DNA of 64,000 bases, taken from assembly GCA_047285805.1 (NCBI GenBank), contig JBJBCN010000002.1, positions 960,001-1,024,000 of the forward strand, written 5' to 3'. The DNA comes from Synechococcus sp. GTDB taxonomy: Bacteria; Cyanobacteriota; Cyanobacteriia; PCC-6307; Cyanobiaceae. This document shows, in pieces, positions 23,501 to 29,500 of the stretch. Within the stretch, counting starts at the first letter, position 1, and every line of letters starts with the position of its first letter. Made by a program: the position numbers.

Positions 23501-26500
23501 AGAGCCGTTACGTTAAAGAAGTAAGTCATTTCAAGATCCTTTCGAGTTCGTCCACAGAGGAGATGTTGCTGCACCCCCTGGCATTAGCAATGCATCAAAG
23601 AATAGATCAGCTACATTCCCAGATTTGTGATAACGATCCAGCCTTTAACTTTGATGCAAACTTGGTGGGGCCTTCTTCATTAGACGAGGCTCTTGAAGTT
23701 TTATGGTCGGATCCTGATCCGGACACAGCAGGATGGGTCCTTATGGTTGACCATCTTCTTAAGTCGAAAGGTCACTGCTTGTGTGATCGTCAAACTCGGA
23801 CAGGTTTAAGTACTTCTGCATTTTTAGAAAGCCAGTTAAAGGGACAGATTCATCGAGATCATCATGAATTCCCACACCTATCCAAGTCTCCTTTATTTCA
23901 CGATCTTTTGCCCACAGATCTTTTGTGGGTCGCTGATCATGGATGGTTGCACTCTTGGATGCCAGGTGAGCAAATCACTCATAAGGAACTGATTCTTCTT
24001 GTACTAAGTGGTGAGGGGACTGAAGTTCTAATTGATGGTGAGGAAGTACGTTATGAAACTGGCTCTTTGATAGGTGCAATGGATGTGATCTCTGGTGAGT
24101 CCTCTAGATCTTCCATACATGCTTCCGCTAAGGGTATGGAAGCATTCGCCTTTCCTTCTCATGCCTTTGATGAGCTACTATCTAGATCAAGCAAGTTTTC
24201 ACATGGACTACTCAGGCAGTTCTGTGCTCGTTTAAAAAAACCTAATTCGACTCTGTCCTCTCAATCGTCTCTTTATACATGATGATTCTATCAAATATTC
24301 CTTGGCTCACCGAAGATTAATAGAAGGGTGTGCGATTCGACATGCGCACACCCCAAGTATCCCTTTATACTGATAAATTATTTGTTTCATTGTTGCATAC
24401 CTTTAGTGCAACTTCCGCAATGCCTAACTTCTCTCCCGTTCGGTCAAGGGCGTGGCGAGTACTTATTGGGGCTTCAGCTCCTCTTGCCTTAATTTATGCT
24501 CCTACAGCTCAGGCAAGCGAATACAACCCGCATCTTGAAGGTTTAAGCATTACGGCACTCGGCCTAAAAGTTAAGACAACTTCAGAGCAAGACAATTCCC
24601 GGATCAACAAAGCCCTGCAGACAGAAGGCAAGGCGATCACGATAGGTAGCCCGGTGACACACCAGCCCTGGAAGTGCGACGTCTTCGTTGACCCCCGTTC
24701 CAACGCCTGCCTGGGTCCCGCCGAGGTGCGTCAGCCCCGCAACTTGTTTGAGCGGATCGTTCAGAAGGGTGCTGGCTACGCCGCTCAATTTGGACCGGCT
24801 ATGGTCAATGGCGATGGAGTTGATCTTGGCGGAGTGGTCCACTCCGAAGTCACCCGCACCCTGATCAGCAGCGGCGTGAACTACGCCAACAAGGAGATCA
24901 AGAAGATTCCCTTCTTCGCTCAGACCTCGCTTGGTCTCAACGCCGCAACAAGCAGCGACCTCGCGGGTTACATCGATAGCTTCATGCGGCTCAAGACGCT
25001 GGGCTACGACATCGAAGGCGATCCCATGGGCCTGATGTTTGGCCAAGCCCGGATATCCCTGGCAACCTCCACCCAACCTCAGGTGAACGTGGGCCTTGGC
25101 AGCCGCTACCGCCTAAGCGATGAAGCAATGGTCGGCCTGAACGGATTCTGGGACCTTCGAACCACCAACTACTCCACCGCTTACACCCGGTGGGGCATCG
25201 GTGCTGAAGGCTTCTGGAAGAGCTTTGAGCTGCGGAACAACTGGTACATCAACGGTTCTGCGGATAAAGACATCACAATCAACGACATCGATTACACCGA
25301 GCGAGTTGTTCCGGGTTGGGATGTGGAGCTGGGCTATCGCATTCCTTCGTACCCCCAGCTGGCAATGTTTGTCCGAGGCTTCAACTGGGATTACCGACAC
25401 AAGAGCGATAACAGCGGTATTGAAGGCTCGCTGAACTGGCAGGCCACAACCCGCGCCAACTTGGAAGTATGGGTTTCGAATGAGATCCCGGCCTACCCCA
25501 CCGACTCGAACAACGACATCGATAACCAGGCCGGTCCCTACTTTGGCGTGCGTGTTCGTTTGACCGGCCGCCCGGTGGTCTTCGCCAAGAACAACACAAA
25601 GCAGAACCTGATCACACAGATGACCCAACCAGTGCGGCGCCGCTATGAGGTGCTGCTGGAGCGCAGTAAGAAAAACAAGTCAAGCGGTGGTTTTGGAGCG
25701 AGCCTATCTGGACGCTAGGGGTACACAACTAATTTCGTTCACATCACAATCTCATGTTTAACATCATTCACAGAAACTTTCTTCTGTCCGTGCTTATCGC
25801 AGGATCATCTCTAGGACTAACATCAATACAACAACCAGCCTACGCGATCGACCCAAAGTGCCGAGAGATCAGCCTTCCCGCAAGTATCAAGACAGGGAGA
25901 GGGGACGGACAGATAAATAGTGGCAACGGGTGCTACTTCACTCCAGATTCTTATATCGTTAAGGCATACAAGCTTGGTCTTTGCGAAAACACGCAACCCC
26001 TTACATCTGCAGGATTCGACCCTTCTAAGTGTGCAGTCGTCTGGGAAAGTGATTCAGGCTATAGCGCTGACTTGGTTAACAATGGTACCGGATCTACATT
26101 CGCACTAAACGCTGGAGAAATTCAGCGTCCACCGAATGGAATATATAGATATGCGTTCATCATGATTGACCCTACAGTCCAACTAAAAGCCACCCTAGAA
26201 CTGGATGCTGAAACATGGGTTACAGACTCAAGCACATATGTTACAGCATCAGGAATCCAATACAATCTGGGAACTAATTCTGGCAATTCTCAACTTATTG
26301 ATTCAAGAACTGGATATCTGTCTCCCGACAATGGCACCACCAAAGTCTGCTTTGTTGAAAGTCTGGACGTCGAAGGGCTTAGCATCACAGCGGCGTTTAT
26401 CGACTCAGACCAGTCTTCTGTAGTTAACTCTGTAACAAGCACAGATAGCATTGGCGATAGCCAGACTGCTTGTCCGGCTTCATACATTGTCGGAGTTCAA

Positions 26501-29500
26501 CCTCTTACCGATCCCGTATCAATAAGTGATTCTACTACAAATATAGACCTTTCTTTCCTAATTACTGACAATGGCGCATGGGCGGAAAATTTCGCCGATG
26601 GAGCCGGCAATCAAGTGGTGTGGTTTGACATTGGTCCATTCAGCATTAAACTTACAGCCAACTAGCATTGCGCAGCTAGGCCAATCCATTCCATTAGAAC
26701 TCGATTTTATTATAGACGCAGAAAAGCCATCCACGCAAATCAATTGTATTTCCCGGGCCTCATCAGAATAAAGCATCTTCGCCTCACAAGCTAACTCGAG
26801 CAATATTGCATTTATACGTGCGTAGAAGGCCTTTTCTTGTGTAGTTAAAGCAAGGTTTTTCCCTAACAGTTAGTGCCTCCTCCACTGCGACCCACTAGCA
26901 GTGATGCTATCCACCTACTGTTCATAGTAAAGAGTTGGGCGTGGATAACTCGGCTACACACCCCGTAGTCCCACGCTCACAATCAATCGCGTACGCGTGA
27001 TGGAAGCAAGGACTAACCCTTGTCGTGAGTCACAGGCACGAAGACAACCACTGCCAGCGGGATCATGTAAATCCCGGCAACAGTGCTTTCAGCAGAGGCT
27101 TCTGAGTCGATAAGGCGAAGGGCTTTCTACTGATATCGACCCTTAAAGGTGCGCCCAATTGCTACGAACAGGTTTTGTAGCCATCCCTCTACAGACCTCC
27201 AAAGGCGGAGCCTGAGTCGGGAAAAAATGCCAAAGAGCGATTCTCCCGCAGTGGATTTGGACTCCACTTGGGCATCCAGACAGGTCGAGCAGAGCACCAC
27301 CCCTTTAACGCGGCGATAGTGCTGGGTGGAACGCTCGATGAAGGTTCCGCACCCCCGGCAAGGAAAGATCGGGCTCATCGCCCAATGATCTAGGTCGCTC
27401 TGGGAGCCCGTCTGCAGCATCGATAGCCAACGGGGCGTAACCGTTCAGGGTCTTTGCATCCCTTCGCCATGGAGATCAGCCCGACAGGATTGAGACAGAT
27501 CAAACGCTTCGAAGGCTGCCGGCTGGAGGCCTACCCCGATCCCGGCAGCGGCTGGAGGGTGGCCTTCAGCAAGCCATGAATGCGACTTCTACCAGCAAGC
27601 CGGGGAGCTGCAATACCGGATTCGAACGCAAGCGAGCGCTGGACAGCGCTTCGCCTGCCCAAGCTGTTGGCAACGCCAAAGCCAAGACCCCGGCTACCAA
27701 TACGGCGGAAACCGCAAGGCCAACCGGCGGGAGCGAGACAAACGAAAACGGCGTAGTTGAAGCGAACCAGCAATTCCTGAGCAGACTGAAGCGGTTCCAC
27801 CAAGGACTTTGGGCGATGGGTACATCCGGCAGCCAAAGCGATGTGCGCGAGATGGTCAACGCCCATCTCTTCCCAGTGCTTGGACTTGTCGGCACCGTCT
27901 GTGCCGTCTCAGCCGCTATCCACCTGGCCTCAGTCGGCGGGCAGGCCGCCCGCTGGAATCGCTGCTACGACAACGGCCTGGCCTATCTGCTGGAGAGCCG
28001 TCCGGAGCTCAAGCAGCACGCCCAAGCCATCGCGGCGAATTTCTGCAATGGCGGCGCCCCCGTCGGCAAAAAATCCGGCGCCTCATGACGGAGTCCTCTA
28101 ACGCTGGCCGTCTGGGCCCTCATAGGTGAATTCCATCAGGATCGCTGAGAAGAGATTCTTCAACTTCTGGAGCTGCTCCTGCTCCCGTGGATCAGGAGCA
28201 CCGGCCCAACGTTCGAGATGGAAGGTGACCGACTTCTGAAGCAGTCGAGCCGTATTGATATCGATCGACAGGTCAATCGTTTGGTCGTTCTCTGGTTCCA
28301 CTGGCCACCGGGAATCAGGTCGTCAACGTTGTTCATCCCTTGGCCGATTGGCCCTTGAGGGATTCAAGAAAGGCAGCAGGTCCACTGGCCACAGGAGGAA
28401 GCTCCATCTTGGCCTCGCGTCCCTCCAGTGCAGCTTTGAGGGACTCGATCATCATCGTGTTCCCGGAGTTCTCCACGGCTTTAAGGGCTGCTTTTAGACG
28501 CGCTTCCCGGGAGACGCCGGCATCAGCAGAGACCACAGGGGAGGTGGCCCGGACGCTCTCGAGCTGCTTGGCCAGGTTCTCCCAAAGCAATCCCATGATT
28601 CATCGATCAGTTGGGGCCAACCTCCCACGGGAGCTCAGCCCTCTCGTGGACTGGTTAAGGAAACGATGCAGCGGTATCCAGCCAAGACGGAGGCCGCCCC
28701 TCCCGGATGGAAGAGACGGCCTAACGCGCTCGTTCATGCATGGGATGCACCCGTTTCGTAAGGGAACGAAAGAAGGGGGCGGAGCCGCTGAGGAAGGACA
28801 CCTGGGGCCAGGTGTCCAGGTGTAGAGCAGTGGTACTCCTTGGGGCACCTGTGGCGGTGCAGATGGAGTGCCGACAGCTCAAACGCTCATGTTTGTTTGA
28901 TCTGACGGCCCGCTCACGGTTTGATGAAGACTGTTGGAGCAGGCGCCTTCAGTCAGCTCGCTCCTGACATCTGGTTGGGTGGAGTGTCGGCCATCAGAGG
29001 CGTCTCCGATCTCTATGGCCATAGCTTCGGCCAGAGCGTGGGGGAAGACAATCGGACTTAATGCCCATTGCGCCGGAGGCGAAACCATCCAAGAGTGGTT
29101 GAATGGCGTCGACGTGGGTCGGCTATCCGCGTTGCTTCGGGTAGCACCGGCTTAGATGGTCTCCATAGCGTTAAGTGCCATCCAAGCAACTCATGGCTGA
29201 CACGAACACCCAGTGCGGCGGCAAGAAGAAAGCAATGCTGGCCTACGGGATCGTTCAGATCTCAGCCACGGTCATCTCCGCGATCTCTCTGGCGGCGATT
29301 GCCGTGGGCCTTTGCTCGATCAAGCAAGAAAGCAAAGCCTTCAACGGTTGCGTTGAAGAGATCGTCAGCGGCGGCAAGAGCACTGCTGCGGCTGTTCGCT
29401 ACTGCAACGGGGGCTGAGCACTCGCGTTCACAACGCCCGCGCATCAGCATGGGGTGAGTGACTCGCCAGCGATGCTGATCAATCCGTTCTGCCCTATCAC

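What a model noticed while it worked through the whole genome (the two positions that open the first line are those of the whole stretch)
24420..26665. Split inverse autotransporter: IAT_beta barrel-only protein tethers a separately encoded secreted partner by its C-termi [...]
Two paralogous two-gene units (g01134+g01135, C2:984420-986665, +; g01021+g01020, C2:880782-882992, -) each encode an inverse-autotransporter barrel (Pfam IAT_beta) that ends ~25 aa after the barrel and linker helix, without passenger, followed 36-40 nt downstream by a ~290-aa protein with its own signal peptide and no known family or fold. The last ~10 residues of the barrel protein (conserved F-x-N-R/S-x-x-G-S-type end) are predicted to insert as a beta-strand into the partner's sheet. 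Proposed: a two-gene form of type Ve secretion in which the 'passenger' is a separate polypeptide held on the barrel's tail by strand complementation.
Evidence so far: IAT_beta i-E 3.5e-64 (g01134, aa 141-409 of 432) and 4.1e-59 (g01021, aa 140-415 of 436). Partners are 29% identical, have no table row; profile search of 1.84e9 representatives: 419 at E<=1e-3, 152 at <=1e-10; of 81 members scanned none hits a Pfam family except one chance WWE hit. predict_complex: g01134 + g01135(32-303) ipSAE 0.67 vs best control 0.01, contacts agree >=56%, partner pLDDT >=69; g01021 + g01020(32-286) 0.73 vs 0.00, >=79%, pLDDT >=82; the mark was reached by 51 of 78 solved complexes and 2 of 108 mismatched pairs. 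In both the interface is only residues 423-432 / 427-436 of the barrel protein against homologous partner strands (261-271 and 105-118; 238-248 and 101-117). Part [...]
(Added by a program. Inside this text positions count along the whole contig: contig position 960,001 is position 1 of the stretch shown here. "Call 12" and the like, gene names such as g00115 and contig names such as C1 are that model's own, and its searches are not shown. The text may have been shortened before it was handed on; [...] marks where a part breaks off. The agent that wrote the report below was given it as the finding of a first reader that could run no searches.)

Follow-up and report, generated by a model that had tools for sequence, protein, structure and literature searches.

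The report
Barrel-only autotransporter with tail-docked partner
A marine Synechococcus-type cyanobacterium carries two copies of a gene pair, an intimin-type outer-membrane barrel without its usual surface domain plus a separately exported, fast-changing protein predicted to clip onto the barrel's short conserved tail, which looks like a two-piece way of showing swappable proteins on the cell surface.

Summary
Window 24420-25718 (+) encodes a 432-aa inverse-autotransporter barrel (Pfam IAT_beta, E 2.6e-63, aa 141-409) that ends 23 residues after the domain. Thirty-five nt downstream, 25754-26665 encodes a 303-aa protein with a Sec-type signal and no family. A paralogous pair lies elsewhere on the contig.

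The pairing is conserved. In 151 genomes of the same family, 19 of 20 such barrels have this partner directly downstream. A SAR116-type alphaproteobacterial order shows the same pairing (49 of 63 partner hits adjacent to a barrel, in either gene order).

The barrel's end is conserved: F at -8 and G at -2 in 39 of 39 distinct tails. The partners diverge much faster (30% against 57% identity).

A complex model built with alignments puts the last ten barrel residues as a strand between partner strands 113-118 and 261-271. The score is 0.73 against 0.00 for the best control. An Arg at tail -5 co-occurs with an acidic residue at partner column 265, its predicted neighbour (rank 1 of 255 columns).

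Surface exposure and the export route are inferred, not shown. The two-partner idea is already known from ZirT/ZirS. The passenger-less barrel, the unnamed partner family and the strand-docking tail form a new variant. This scan noted the same kind of pair earlier in SAR11-type genomes.

The parts
24420..25718 (+). g01134: passenger-less inverse-autotransporter barrel protein, 432 aa plus stop
   Evidence: ORF. Pfam IAT_beta E 2.6e-63. The AF2 model matches the invasin and intimin beta-domains 4e1t/4e1s at TMt 0.77-0.78, E about 1e-13.
24420..24515 (+). Signal peptide of the barrel protein (aa 1-32, predicted cleavage after AQA)
   Evidence: Read by eye from the translation: basic n-region, hydrophobic core, A-x-A. 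No signal-peptide predictor was run.
24516..24839 (+). N-terminal, presumably periplasmic region (aa 33-140) with two conserved Cys; no LysM or other Pfam domain
   Evidence: Alignment A2; no Pfam hit; low-confidence part of the AF2 model, pLDDT below 50.
24840..25646 (+). IAT_beta domain (aa 141-409): barrel strands, plug helix (aa 393-401) and the pore-crossing linker
   Evidence: same coordinates in the six-frame search. DSSP and pLDDT 80-96.
25647..25670 (+). Exit strand (aa 410-417, the E-V-L-L-E-R-S-K stretch). [quoted passage not shown]
   Evidence: Strand E413-417 in the AF2 model. L412, E414 and R415 are >=90% conserved. The intimin description comes from passages of PMC13078405. The residue correspondence is my inference.
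25686..25715 (+). Conserved C-terminal tail (aa 423-432), the predicted donor strand. F425 is at position -8 and G431 at -2.
   Evidence: G431 is invariant and F425 is >=90% conserved in 18 barrels. F(-8) and G(-2) occur in 39 of 39 distinct F-type tails. The tail is disordered in the barrel-alone model. It is the only barrel segment in the predicted interface.
25719..25753 (+). 35-nt spacer between the two genes with no terminator-like site; one operon is inferred
25754..26665 (+). g01135: partner protein, 303 aa plus stop. Sec-type signal (aa 1-31, predicted cleavage after AYA), four conserved Cys, all-beta, unnamed family.
   Evidence: The AF2 model built with 80 sequences has pLDDT 87 and pTM 0.83.
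26090..26107 (+). Partner aa 113-118, predicted to pair antiparallel with the barrel tail
   Evidence: Contact list (tail 427/428 with 118/117; tail 430 with 115). L118 is conserved in 18 of 18 cyanobacterial partners.
26534..26566 (+). Partner aa 261-271, predicted to pair in parallel with the barrel tail. Column 265 covaries in charge with tail position -5.

Best explanation
This is a two-piece type Ve (inverse-autotransporter) surface module.

The first gene makes an intimin-type 12-strand-class outer-membrane barrel. Its plug helix and linker run through the pore as in intimin, so the polypeptide ends at the outer mouth of the barrel. Instead of a passenger it carries only a conserved 8-10-residue tail of the form F-x-[N/A]-x-[A/V]-x-G-x.

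The second, co-transcribed gene makes a Sec-exported, disulfide-containing, all-beta protein of about 270 residues from an unnamed family. The tail inserts as a beta-strand between two strands of the partner (aa 113-118 and 261-271). This resembles donor-strand complementation and holds the partner non-covalently on the barrel.

The anchor is conserved, while the partner is a fast-evolving, exchangeable cassette. It is therefore most likely a variable surface-exposed protein whose ligand is unknown; phage, grazer, particle or cell-cell interaction are guesses.

Shown here:
- the gene pair and its conservation across two phyla, in both gene orders;
- a barrel without a passenger;
- the conserved tail;
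- the faster divergence and lower G+C of the partners;
- a confident and control-separated predicted interface;
- one charge covariation at that interface.

Inferred:
- the extracellular position of the tail, by homology to intimin;
- export of the partner across the outer membrane in a barrel-dependent way, by analogy to ZirT/ZirS;
- permanent tethering of the partner, as opposed to release;
- any biological role.
For: (1) Anatomy. IAT_beta matches to the end of the profile at aa 409 of 432. The AF2 barrel model matches invasin and intimin beta-domains at E 3.8e-13 and 9.4e-13, TMt 0.77 and 0.78. It has helix 393-401, strand 413-417 and a disordered tail 421-432.

(2) Linkage in the same family (151 genomes). 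The partner profile matches in 20 genomes and IAT_beta in 24. All 17 genomes with a strong barrel hit have the partner. Of 20 such barrels, 19 have an A1-type partner directly downstream. The twentieth (G117:C47) has a 237-aa signal-bearing protein with the family's N-terminal motif.

(3) Linkage in a second phylum. In the order of a MAG titled Ca. Puniceispirillum, the partner occurs in 52 of 192 genomes and IAT_beta in 57 of 192. Of 63 partner hits, 41 are barrel>partner, 8 are partner>barrel and 14 have no barrel within 600 nt. Nearly all of those 14 lie at contig ends or are fragments. Three further alphaproteobacterial genomes, out of 401 sampled at class level, also have a barrel directly upstream. 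A metagenome contig has a 336-aa lipoprotein barrel (IAT_beta 7.3e-43) overlapping the partner gene.

(4) Tail. G431 is invariant and F425 is >=90% conserved in 18 barrels that are as little as 24% identical to the window's barrel. All 39 distinct F-type tails have F(-8) and G(-2), with A or V at -4 in 33. Conservation at alternate positions fits one buried face of a strand.

(5) Tail type tracks partner type. Of 69 units, 52 combine the F/G tail with a GPF-type partner C-terminus and 9 combine another tail class with another partner class. Eight are exceptions, three of them truncated or broken partners.

(6) Complex model with alignments. The score is 0.73 (runs 0.73, 0.73, 0.79) against 0.00 for the best of 3 controls. 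This mark was reached by 116 of 157 solved complexes and 2 of 215 mismatched pairs; those counts hold only roughly because my own alignments were used. The runs agree in >=69% of contacts and the partner pLDDT is >=83. The interface is barrel 423-432 only. No PDB sequence relative of the partner exists, so a pass from memory of a solved complex is unlikely.

(7) Covariation. Arg at tail -5 (9 pairs) goes with Asp or Glu at partner column 265 in 78%, against 6% of the other 50 pairs. Column 265 ranks 1 of 255 columns, and does so in the cyanobacteria-only subset too. Residue 265 is the lowest-error predicted neighbour of tail residue 428, which is position -5.

(8) Partner variability. In 18 cyanobacterial units the barrels average 57% identity and the partners 30%. 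The partner is the less conserved of the two in 152 of 153 comparisons. Within the genus, barrels are 81-90% identical and partners 18-37%. Barrel G+C is 0.56 and partner G+C 0.45-0.48 in a 0.61 genome.

(9) Precedent. ZirS (276 aa, Sec signal, encoded downstream of the inverse-autotransporter barrel ZirT) is secreted only when ZirT is present, and this also works in E. coli (PMC2270342, sections 7 and 10).
Against: There is no experiment and no expression data.

The route by which a separate polypeptide would cross the outer membrane is unknown, because a 12-strand-type pore already holds the linker.

Residues in the predicted interface are not more conserved than other strand residues (Mann-Whitney p 0.13 to 0.25). 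A general mutual-information scan of six tail positions found no enrichment of interface columns among the top ten (p 0.15 to 0.79). The charge test was framed after I had looked at the residue table, and the Arg-tail pairs all belong to one clade.

Partner-family genes also occur without an adjacent barrel. These are L006 and L032 in G018, L018 in G128 and L013 in G048. A distant subfamily occurs in three genomes with no IAT_beta hit at all (G001, G015, G054; G054 is 100% complete). The fold therefore does not always need this tail.

The complex model is a prediction. The tool's own text says a pass supports binding but does not show it.

No fused barrel-partner protein was found that would prove the partner is a former passenger (apart from one 1643-aa repeat protein, P0022, all of the best 150 hits are 105-341 aa long; none, which is weak evidence).
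Confidence: 0.55

Rival explanations
1. ZirT/ZirS-like two-partner secretion with release. The barrel is a translocator, the partner is a soluble exoprotein that ends up in the medium, and the tail is only a transient recognition or priming element.
For: The experimentally studied precedent releases ZirS into the medium in a ZirT-dependent way (PMC2270342). Gene order, partner size and Sec signal match it. One barrel is followed by two tandem partners in G011 (L016), as in zirTSU. Orphan partners occur in genomes that hold one barrel.
Against: The predicted contact is a strand inserted between two partner strands with about 1 A expected error. By analogy to donor-strand complementation (established knowledge) this is usually very stable. 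The tail is invariant at two positions across phyla, which fits a structural role. Unlike ZirT, this barrel has no IgSF domain of its own.
Confidence: 0.2
2. Periplasmic complex. The tail, or the whole C-terminal segment, stays on the periplasmic side and the partner is a periplasmic protein anchored to, or regulating, a small outer-membrane barrel. Nothing is displayed on the surface.
For: The partner has only a Sec signal and no recognised outer-membrane export signal. Heinz et al. proposed a periplasmic resting position for the C-terminal domain of ZirT-like proteins (PMC4943183, discussion passages). The barrel's N-terminal 130 residues are unexplained.
Against: The plug helix, linker and exit strand are conserved and modelled as in intimin, where the exit strand sits in the extracellular sheet. 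In the alphaproteobacterial barrels the F of the tail follows the exit strand after only 1-2 residues, which leaves no slack to reach the periplasm. The very fast divergence and foreign G+C of the partners are more typical of exposed proteins, but this is an inference. The predicted interface contains no periplasmic residues.
Confidence: 0.12
3. Functionally linked neighbours without tail docking. The barrel-only protein is a small pore or structural outer-membrane protein and the partner is an independent exported protein. The predicted strand insertion is a modelling artefact.
For: Interface columns are not more conserved than other strand columns. The general mutual-information scan shows no enrichment. 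Some family members live without any barrel. Structure predictors readily add free termini to sheet edges (general knowledge).
Against: Three controls scored 0.00 against 0.73. The tail is the most conserved stretch outside the barrel itself. Tail class follows partner class. The Arg/acid pairing falls on the predicted neighbour, rank 1 of 255. Adjacency survives a reversal of gene order.
Confidence: 0.08

Closest known systems
ZirT/ZirS(/ZirU) of Salmonella and the 'two-partner inverse autotransporters' (SinH/SinI, Yfr4/Rat-like, IatB). Sources: Gal-Mor 2008, PMC2270342 (abstract, sections 7 and 10 read); Heinz 2016, PMC4943183 (sections 10 and 11 and passages read); Goh 2019, PMC6714894 (passages read).
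   Same: An IAT_beta barrel gene is followed on the same strand by a gene for a barrel-less protein of about 280-300 aa with a Sec signal. The unit is horizontally acquired and lies in an island. Sometimes several partners follow one barrel.
   Different: ZirT and its relatives keep their own C-terminal IgSF domains, and their partners resemble those domains. Here the barrel ends 23 residues after the domain, and the partner has no detectable IgSF, Pfam or PDB relative. Nothing like the conserved tail and strand insertion turned up for ZirTS in the sections and passages I read. ZirS is released into the medium, whereas tethering is proposed here.
Classical inverse autotransporters, intimin and invasin (type Ve; PDB 4E1S, 4E1T)
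   Same: Homologous barrel, plug helix, linker and exit strand. N-terminal signal peptide.
   Different: No covalently attached passenger, no Big or IgSF repeats, no LysM. The 'passenger' would be a separate polypeptide.
'invasin_beta-only' proteins noted by Heinz et al. 2016, including groups in Cyanobacteria and Chlamydiae (PMC4943183, section 10)
   Same: [quoted passage not shown] Cyanobacterial members are mentioned.
   Different: In the parts I read, that paper does not describe a dedicated partner family, a conserved tail or a docking mechanism for the barrel-only group. Its searchable supplements hold no Synechococcus or Prochlorococcus entry, and one supplementary file could not be searched.
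Donor-strand complementation in chaperone-usher pili (established knowledge) and C-terminal-tail beta-strand augmentation of PilC on type IV pili (PMC13711793, search listing only)
   Same: It works in a similar way: a short strand from one protein completes or extends the sheet of another, and alternate strand positions are conserved.
   Different: No chaperone, usher or pilin homology. The donor is an outer-membrane barrel protein. It was not shown that the partner's fold is incomplete without the tail.
Earlier notes of this scan on SAR11-type genomes (e1-7083223, e1-7106526, e1-3123152, e1-2313116, e1-2209701, e1-2329949; AI notes)
   Same: Passenger-less intimin-type barrel plus a separately exported, variable partner predicted to dock on the barrel's short tail.
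   Different: Other genomes and another order. A word look-up with the window's partner found no look-alike stretch among earlier windows. I did not test the SAR11 pairs.

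Membership tests
Inverse autotransporter beta-domain (Pfam PF11924 IAT_beta; type Ve) | Match to the IAT_beta profile above the gathering score | tested here: met
   214.7 bits against a cut-off of 22.3, E 2.6e-63, profile positions 23-279 of 279. The paralogue scores E 8.1e-59.
Inverse autotransporter beta-domain (Pfam PF11924 IAT_beta; type Ve) | Barrel fold of intimin/invasin with plug helix, pore-crossing linker and exit strand | tested here: met
   The AF2 model against the PDB gives 4e1t E 3.8e-13 at TMt 0.77 and 4e1s E 9.4e-13 at TMt 0.78. Helix 393-401 and strand 413-417 have pLDDT 80-91. This is a model only.
Inverse autotransporter beta-domain (Pfam PF11924 IAT_beta; type Ve) | C-terminal passenger of IgSF/Big (or other) domains on the same polypeptide | tested here: not met
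   The protein ends 23 residues after the Pfam domain. The same holds for all 18 aligned barrels.
Inverse autotransporter beta-domain (Pfam PF11924 IAT_beta; type Ve) | C-terminus exposed on the cell surface | not testable with these tools
   Inferred from homology to intimin topology (passages of PMC13078405).
Two-partner inverse autotransporter (ZirT/ZirS type) | Barrel gene with an adjacent co-oriented gene for a Sec-signal protein that lacks a barrel | tested here: met
   The arrangement is conserved in 19 of 20 barrels of the family sample and in 49 of 63 partner hits in the alphaproteobacterial order.
Two-partner inverse autotransporter (ZirT/ZirS type) | The translocator carries its own IgSF domain(s), and the partner resembles them in sequence | tested here: not met
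   There is no domain after the barrel. Nothing on the barrel protein could resemble the partner.
Two-partner inverse autotransporter (ZirT/ZirS type) | Partner with an IgSF-type beta-sandwich fold | tested here: inconclusive
   The partner model (pLDDT 87) has no Foldseek match at E<=1e-3. The best VIA Z is 4.9 in the wide search and 3.5 in the second look. A missing match does not exclude the fold.
Two-partner inverse autotransporter (ZirT/ZirS type) | Secretion of the partner depends on the barrel | not testable with these tools
   This needs an experiment.
Donor-strand complementation (compared for mechanism only) | Donor strand with conserved alternate positions inserted between two strands of the acceptor | tested here: met
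   Tail positions -8 F, -6 N/A, -4 A/V and -2 G. The model puts tail 426-431 parallel to 263-269 and antiparallel to 115-118. This is a prediction only.
Donor-strand complementation (compared for mechanism only) | Acceptor fold incomplete or unstable without the donor strand | tested here: inconclusive
   The partner alone is modelled confidently (pLDDT 87, dropping to 75 at residues 111-120). Model coordinates could not be inspected. Barrel-less family members exist.

The most novel reading that the evidence does not exclude
The barrel's tail is the first strand of a passenger domain that has been split off into its own gene. Folding of the separately exported partner onto that strand at the cell surface both drives its passage across the outer membrane and locks it in place. 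This would give a plug-and-play display system: one conserved anchor accepts exchangeable partner cassettes, encoded next to it or elsewhere in the genome. Such a system would be used by some of the most abundant ocean bacteria (picocyanobacteria, SAR116 and, by this scan's notes, SAR11) to vary their surface against phages and grazers.
Probability: 0.25. Interest if true: 0.85.

Novelty: new variant of a known kind. Interest (0 to 1): 0.62.

Why it matters
Type V secretion is defined by a barrel and a passenger on one chain (Va, Vc, Vd, Ve) or by an Omp85 transporter with a separate substrate (Vb). A passenger-less Ve barrel that holds a separate protein by a donated strand would be a third arrangement. 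It would also offer a simple test system for how a separate polypeptide uses an intimin-type barrel, a question left open for ZirT/ZirS since 2008.

The module is common in marine picocyanobacteria (17 of 151 genomes sampled) and in a SAR116-type order (about a quarter of 192 genomes). It sits in low-G+C islands, and its partners are exchanged far faster than its anchors. It may therefore be one of the variable surface features that shape phage and grazer interactions in the ocean.

The conserved 8-residue tail could also serve as a natural tag for surface display.

Tried and rejected
- The search for related loci with the 80-sequence alignment failed because no stretch was conserved enough. 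I used the genome search with the profile and a single close protein instead.
- The word-index protein search found only the query itself or three more proteins. The 'longer' search for fused forms found none, which the tool's own text calls weak evidence.
- Partner fold. Foldseek against the PDB gave no match at E<=1e-3. The VIA wide search gave a best Z of 4.9 (phage neck protein, 102 aligned residues, rmsd 4.3). The VIA second look gave a best Z of 3.5. No fold is assigned, and this does not show a new fold.
- The PDB sequence-profile search with the partner alignment found none at E<=10.
- The ESM Atlas returned only unnamed clusters. The nearest named ones, DUF3060 (0.91) and DUF4382 (0.89), are leads at best.
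- RNA evidence: no RNA holder was listed.
- Conservation of interface columns was not significant. The general mutual-information scan showed no enrichment.
- The supplements of Heinz 2016 had 0 occurrences of Synechococcus, Prochlorococcus, Cyanobacteria or Puniceispirillum in the 2 files searched. One file could not be searched.
- Literature searches for inverse autotransporter combined with cyanobacteria, Synechococcus/Prochlorococcus/PF11924, two-partner/ZirT, and strand complementation/donor strand/passenger-less found no paper describing this pair or a strand-docked partner. This covers only the library searched.
- I considered that the partner is itself an outer-membrane barrel, because many Prochlorococcus-type partners end in F or Y. 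I set this aside. The aromatic end is absent in the window's genus and in alphaproteobacteria. The family has four conserved Cys. No barrel match appeared in the fold searches.
- I considered the 1643-aa hit P0022 as a fused form. It is a repeat protein that matches only partner residues 217-289, twelve times, so I did not treat it as a relative.

Full report
**What is in the window.** The ORF listing shows two co-oriented ORFs.

The first is 24420-25718 (+). It is 432 aa counted from the ATG that yields a typical signal peptide with cleavage after AQA; the frame is open from a GTG at 24330. The second is 25754-26665 (+), 303 aa, with a signal peptide that would be cleaved after AYA. The two are 35 nt apart, and no terminator-like site lies between them.

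Pfam places IAT_beta (PF11924) on aa 141-409 of the first protein, with E 2.6e-63, and the match runs to the last profile position. Only 23 residues follow the domain. NCBIfam gives weak partial hits to intimin-type adhesins, far below their cut-offs. The second protein matches nothing in Pfam or NCBIfam.

The genome has 2.37 Mb, 61% G+C and 13 phycobiliprotein matches, so it is a phycobilisome-bearing cyanobacterium. It holds exactly two IAT_beta matches.

The second match heads a paralogous pair on the minus strand: a 436-aa barrel, a 39-nt gap and a 286-aa partner. The barrels are 77% identical and the partners 26% identical with E 3e-16.

**The barrel protein.** A profile built from 18 barrels finds the intimin and invasin beta-domains in the PDB by sequence (4e1s at 9.9e-16, 4e1t at 5.2e-15).

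An AF2 model made with those 18 sequences is confident over the barrel, with pLDDT 80-96. It superposes on 4e1t and 4e1s at TMt 0.77 and 0.78. The model shows a helix at 393-401, a strand at 413-417 and a disordered end at 421-432.

In intimin, an alpha-helical turn plugs the periplasmic side. The linker then crosses the pore, and a short strand at the linker's C-terminal tip pairs with extracellular loops 4 and 5 (passages of PMC13078405). By homology, the window protein's E-V-L-L-E-R stretch is that exit strand. The last roughly 17 residues would then lie at the outer mouth of the barrel. This topology is inferred, not shown.

The N-terminal 130 mature residues have two conserved Cys, match no domain and are modelled poorly.

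**The partner protein.** A phmmer search of 1.84e9 representatives found 247 relatives at E<=1e-3, 35 at <=1e-10 and 5 at <=1e-30. Nearly all are 250-345 aa long.

An alignment of 80 members shows four conserved Cys, an invariant Tyr, and conserved N-terminal (T-P-x-x-Y ... G-L-C) and C-terminal (G-P-F) motifs. None of the 80 matches Pfam.

AF2 with this alignment gives an all-beta model with pLDDT 87 and pTM 0.83. It has no convincing structural neighbour: Foldseek finds none at E<=1e-3, the VIA wide search gives a best Z of 4.9, and the VIA second look gives 3.5. It has no PDB sequence relative at E<=10. The ESM Atlas returns only unnamed clusters. I therefore cannot name a fold, but this is not proof of a new one.

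**The two genes form a conserved unit.** I sampled 151 genomes of the same family. The partner profile matches in 20 genomes and IAT_beta in 24.

Seven of the IAT_beta genomes have only weak partial hits inside 433-960-aa frames. The other 17 carry 20 barrel-only genes, one of them broken. All 17 of these genomes also have the partner.

Nineteen of the 20 barrels have an A1-type partner directly downstream on the same strand. The twentieth (G117:C47) is followed by a 237-aa signal-bearing protein with the family's N-terminal motif that stays below the profile threshold. In G011 one barrel is followed by two tandem partners.

In a phylum-wide sample the partner was found only in this family: 6 of 301 genomes, and 0 of 287 outside the family.

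A partner cluster that its sources name 'Alphaproteobacteria bacterium' led to a MAG titled Candidatus Puniceispirillum. It also led to a metagenome contig where a 336-aa lipoprotein barrel precedes the partner. That barrel matches IAT_beta at 7.3e-43 over aa 58-321 and shares 32% identity with the window barrel over 130 aligned residues (BLASTP). It overlaps the partner gene by 23 nt, and a phage-type integrase lies beside the pair.

In the order of that MAG, 52 of 192 genomes have the partner and 57 of 192 have IAT_beta. Of 63 partner hits:
- 41 lie just downstream of a barrel;
- 8 lie just upstream of one, so the gene order is reversed;
- 14 have no barrel within 600 nt, and almost all of these sit at contig ends or are fragments.

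A class-level sample found the partner in only 3 further genomes of 401. Each of those has a barrel-only gene directly upstream.

Adjacency that survives across two phyla, very low sequence identity and an inversion of gene order is strong evidence for a functional pair.

**The tail.** Across 18 barrels, some only 24% identical to the window's barrel, the penultimate Gly (G431) is invariant and F425 is >=90% conserved.

I read 69 units from the loci and found 39 distinct tails of this type. All 39 have F at -8 and G at -2. Position -4 is A or V in 33, and -6 is N or A in 30. Conservation at alternate positions is what one buried face of a beta-strand would show.

The spacer between exit strand and tail shrinks from 7-9 residues in the window's genus to 1-2 in the alphaproteobacteria. 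If the model holds, the partner would therefore sit directly on the barrel mouth.

Tail type follows partner type:
- 52 of the 69 units combine the F/G tail with a G-P-F-type partner C-terminus;
- 9 combine a different tail (x-L-G-[VIL]-V ...) with a different partner subfamily, and 8 of these are in the reversed order;
- 8 are exceptions, three of them truncated or broken partners.

Further barrel-only genes carry yet other short strand-like tails. They are followed by signal-bearing proteins of 201-695 aa, several with the partner family's N-terminal motif. The class is therefore wider than the profile used here.

**Predicted docking.** I ran complex prediction with my own alignments, using barrel residues 33-432 and partner residues 32-303.

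The scores were 0.73, 0.73 and 0.79 against 0.00 for each of three controls. This mark was reached by 116 of 157 solved complexes and 2 of 215 mismatched pairs. Those counts hold only roughly, because my own alignments were used. The runs agree in at least 69% of contacts, and the partner pLDDT is at least 83.

The only barrel residues in the confident interface are 423-432. Tail residues 426-431 run parallel to partner residues 263-269 and antiparallel to 115-118. The tail is thus inserted between two strands, not merely added at a sheet edge. The second pair was not repeated.

The tool's own text says a pass supports binding but does not show it.

**Independent sequence tests of that interface.** I ran three tests.

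1. Interface columns are not more conserved than other strand columns (p 0.13 in cyanobacteria, 0.25 overall). This gives no support.
2. A general mutual-information scan of six tail positions against all partner columns shows no enrichment of interface columns in the top ten (p 0.15-0.79). This gives no support, and phylogeny dominates the signal.
3. The one charged conserved tail residue does give a signal. Nine pairs have Arg at -5. Their partners have Asp or Glu at column 265 in 78%, against 6% of the other 50 pairs. Among all 255 columns, column 265 ranks first, and it also ranks first within the cyanobacteria alone. Residue 265 is the lowest-error predicted neighbour of tail residue 428, which is position -5.

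I framed the third test after seeing the residue table, and the Arg tails all belong to one clade. It is therefore suggestive, not decisive.

**Evolutionary behaviour.** Among 18 cyanobacterial units, barrels average 57% identity and partners 30%. The partner is the less conserved of the two in 152 of 153 comparisons. Within the window's genus, barrels are 81-90% identical while partners are 18-37% identical.

In this genome the barrels have 0.56 G+C (GC3 0.62-0.67) and the partners 0.45-0.48 (GC3 0.40-0.42), against a genome value of 0.61. Both units lie in low-G+C islands.

A conserved anchor with a rapidly replaced, compositionally foreign partner is the pattern expected of an exposed, exchangeable surface protein. 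That reading is an inference.

**Points against obligatory dependence.** Some partner genes lack an adjacent barrel in genomes that hold a barrel elsewhere (G018, G128, G048). A distant subfamily occurs in three genomes with no IAT_beta match at all (G001, G015 and the complete G054).

No fused barrel-partner protein was seen. Apart from one 1643-aa repeat protein (P0022), which I did not treat as a relative, the best 150 hits are 105-341 aa long, and the 'longer' search found none, which is weak evidence. No RNA run could be listed.

**Comparison with what is known.** The closest described system is ZirT/ZirS of Salmonella. ZirS is a 276-aa protein with a Sec signal, encoded downstream of the inverse-autotransporter barrel ZirT. 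It is secreted only when ZirT is present, and this also works in E. coli (PMC2270342, abstract and sections 7 and 10).

Heinz et al. 2016 generalised this to 'two-partner inverse autotransporters'. They also noted 'invasin_beta-only' proteins, including groups in Cyanobacteria (PMC4943183, sections 10 and 11).

The present module fails two features of the ZirT type. It has no IgSF domain on the barrel protein, and its partner has no detectable similarity to such domains.

It adds two features that I did not find in the papers read or in four literature searches. These are a conserved 8-residue C-terminal tail and a predicted strand insertion that resembles donor-strand complementation in chaperone-usher pili (established knowledge).

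This scan has already noted the same kind of pair in SAR11-type genomes (AI notes, not tested here). What is new in this window is its presence in picocyanobacteria and a SAR116-type order, the tail census and the charge covariation.

**Verdict.** The pair is real, conserved and almost certainly functional as a unit.

The best explanation (0.55) is a split type Ve display module in which the barrel's tail holds a separately exported, exchangeable partner at the cell surface. The main rivals are:
- ZirS-like release of the partner (0.20);
- a periplasmic complex (0.12);
- no physical docking (0.08).

I class it as a new variant of a known kind, with interest 0.62.

Noticed in passing
window 20000-27000: A low-G+C island (about 0.44-0.50 against 0.59-0.64 on both sides) holds the pair plus two upstream ORFs: 20404-21495 (363 aa, no Pfam hit) and 21694-24282 (862 aa). 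No tRNA gene lies at its borders; the nearest are at 11494 and 40324.
   Followed up: partly
window 21694-24282 (+): An 862-aa multi-pass-looking protein directly upstream of the barrel gene. Its only Pfam hit is weak (Fer4_5, E 6.7e-05), and NCBIfam gives a faint CcoG-like hit (E 0.024). G+C is 0.44. I did not check whether it is linked to the pair.
   Followed up: no
L016 (G011:C1:1188458-1192303): One barrel-only gene followed by two tandem partner genes (320 and 283 aa) on the same strand, an arrangement like zirT-zirS-zirU.
   Followed up: partly
L020, L021, L022 (G015, G054, G001): A distant partner subfamily (C-terminal S-x-A-P-F-I-F motif) occurs in genomes without any IAT_beta match. 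In L020 and L021 the next gene downstream encodes a 356-440-aa protein with a pilin-like hydrophobic N-terminus.
   Followed up: no
L058, L061, L062, L063, L065, L095: Other barrel-only IAT_beta genes have different short strand-like C-terminal tails. Each is followed at a gap of 0 to about 120 nt by a signal-bearing protein of 201-695 aa. Several of these proteins carry the P-x-x-Y ... E-L-C motif of the partner family but are not found by the A1 profile. The L065 barrel protein has a roughly 400-aa N-terminal extension.
   Followed up: partly
L028 (G048:C10:37355-40714): A decayed copy of the unit: the barrel gene is interrupted by a TAA and the partner is split into two frames.
   Followed up: no
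L036 4739-5716 and L033 1060-2709: The alphaproteobacterial pair sits next to a phage-type integrase (Pfam 3e-26). In the MAG contig it also sits next to what reads like an IS3-type transposase, which suggests the unit moves on a mobile island.
   Followed up: partly
P0022 (protein): A 1643-aa protein matches partner residues 217-289 in 12 tandem repeats of about 90 aa (E 7.9e-13). It is unclear whether this is true homology to the C-terminal part of the partner or a compositional match.
   Followed up: no
partner C-termini: Many Prochlorococcus-type partners end in an aromatic residue preceded by F-x-P-x-F, reminiscent of an outer-membrane beta-signal. Partners of the window's genus and of alphaproteobacteria do not end this way.
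   Followed up: partly
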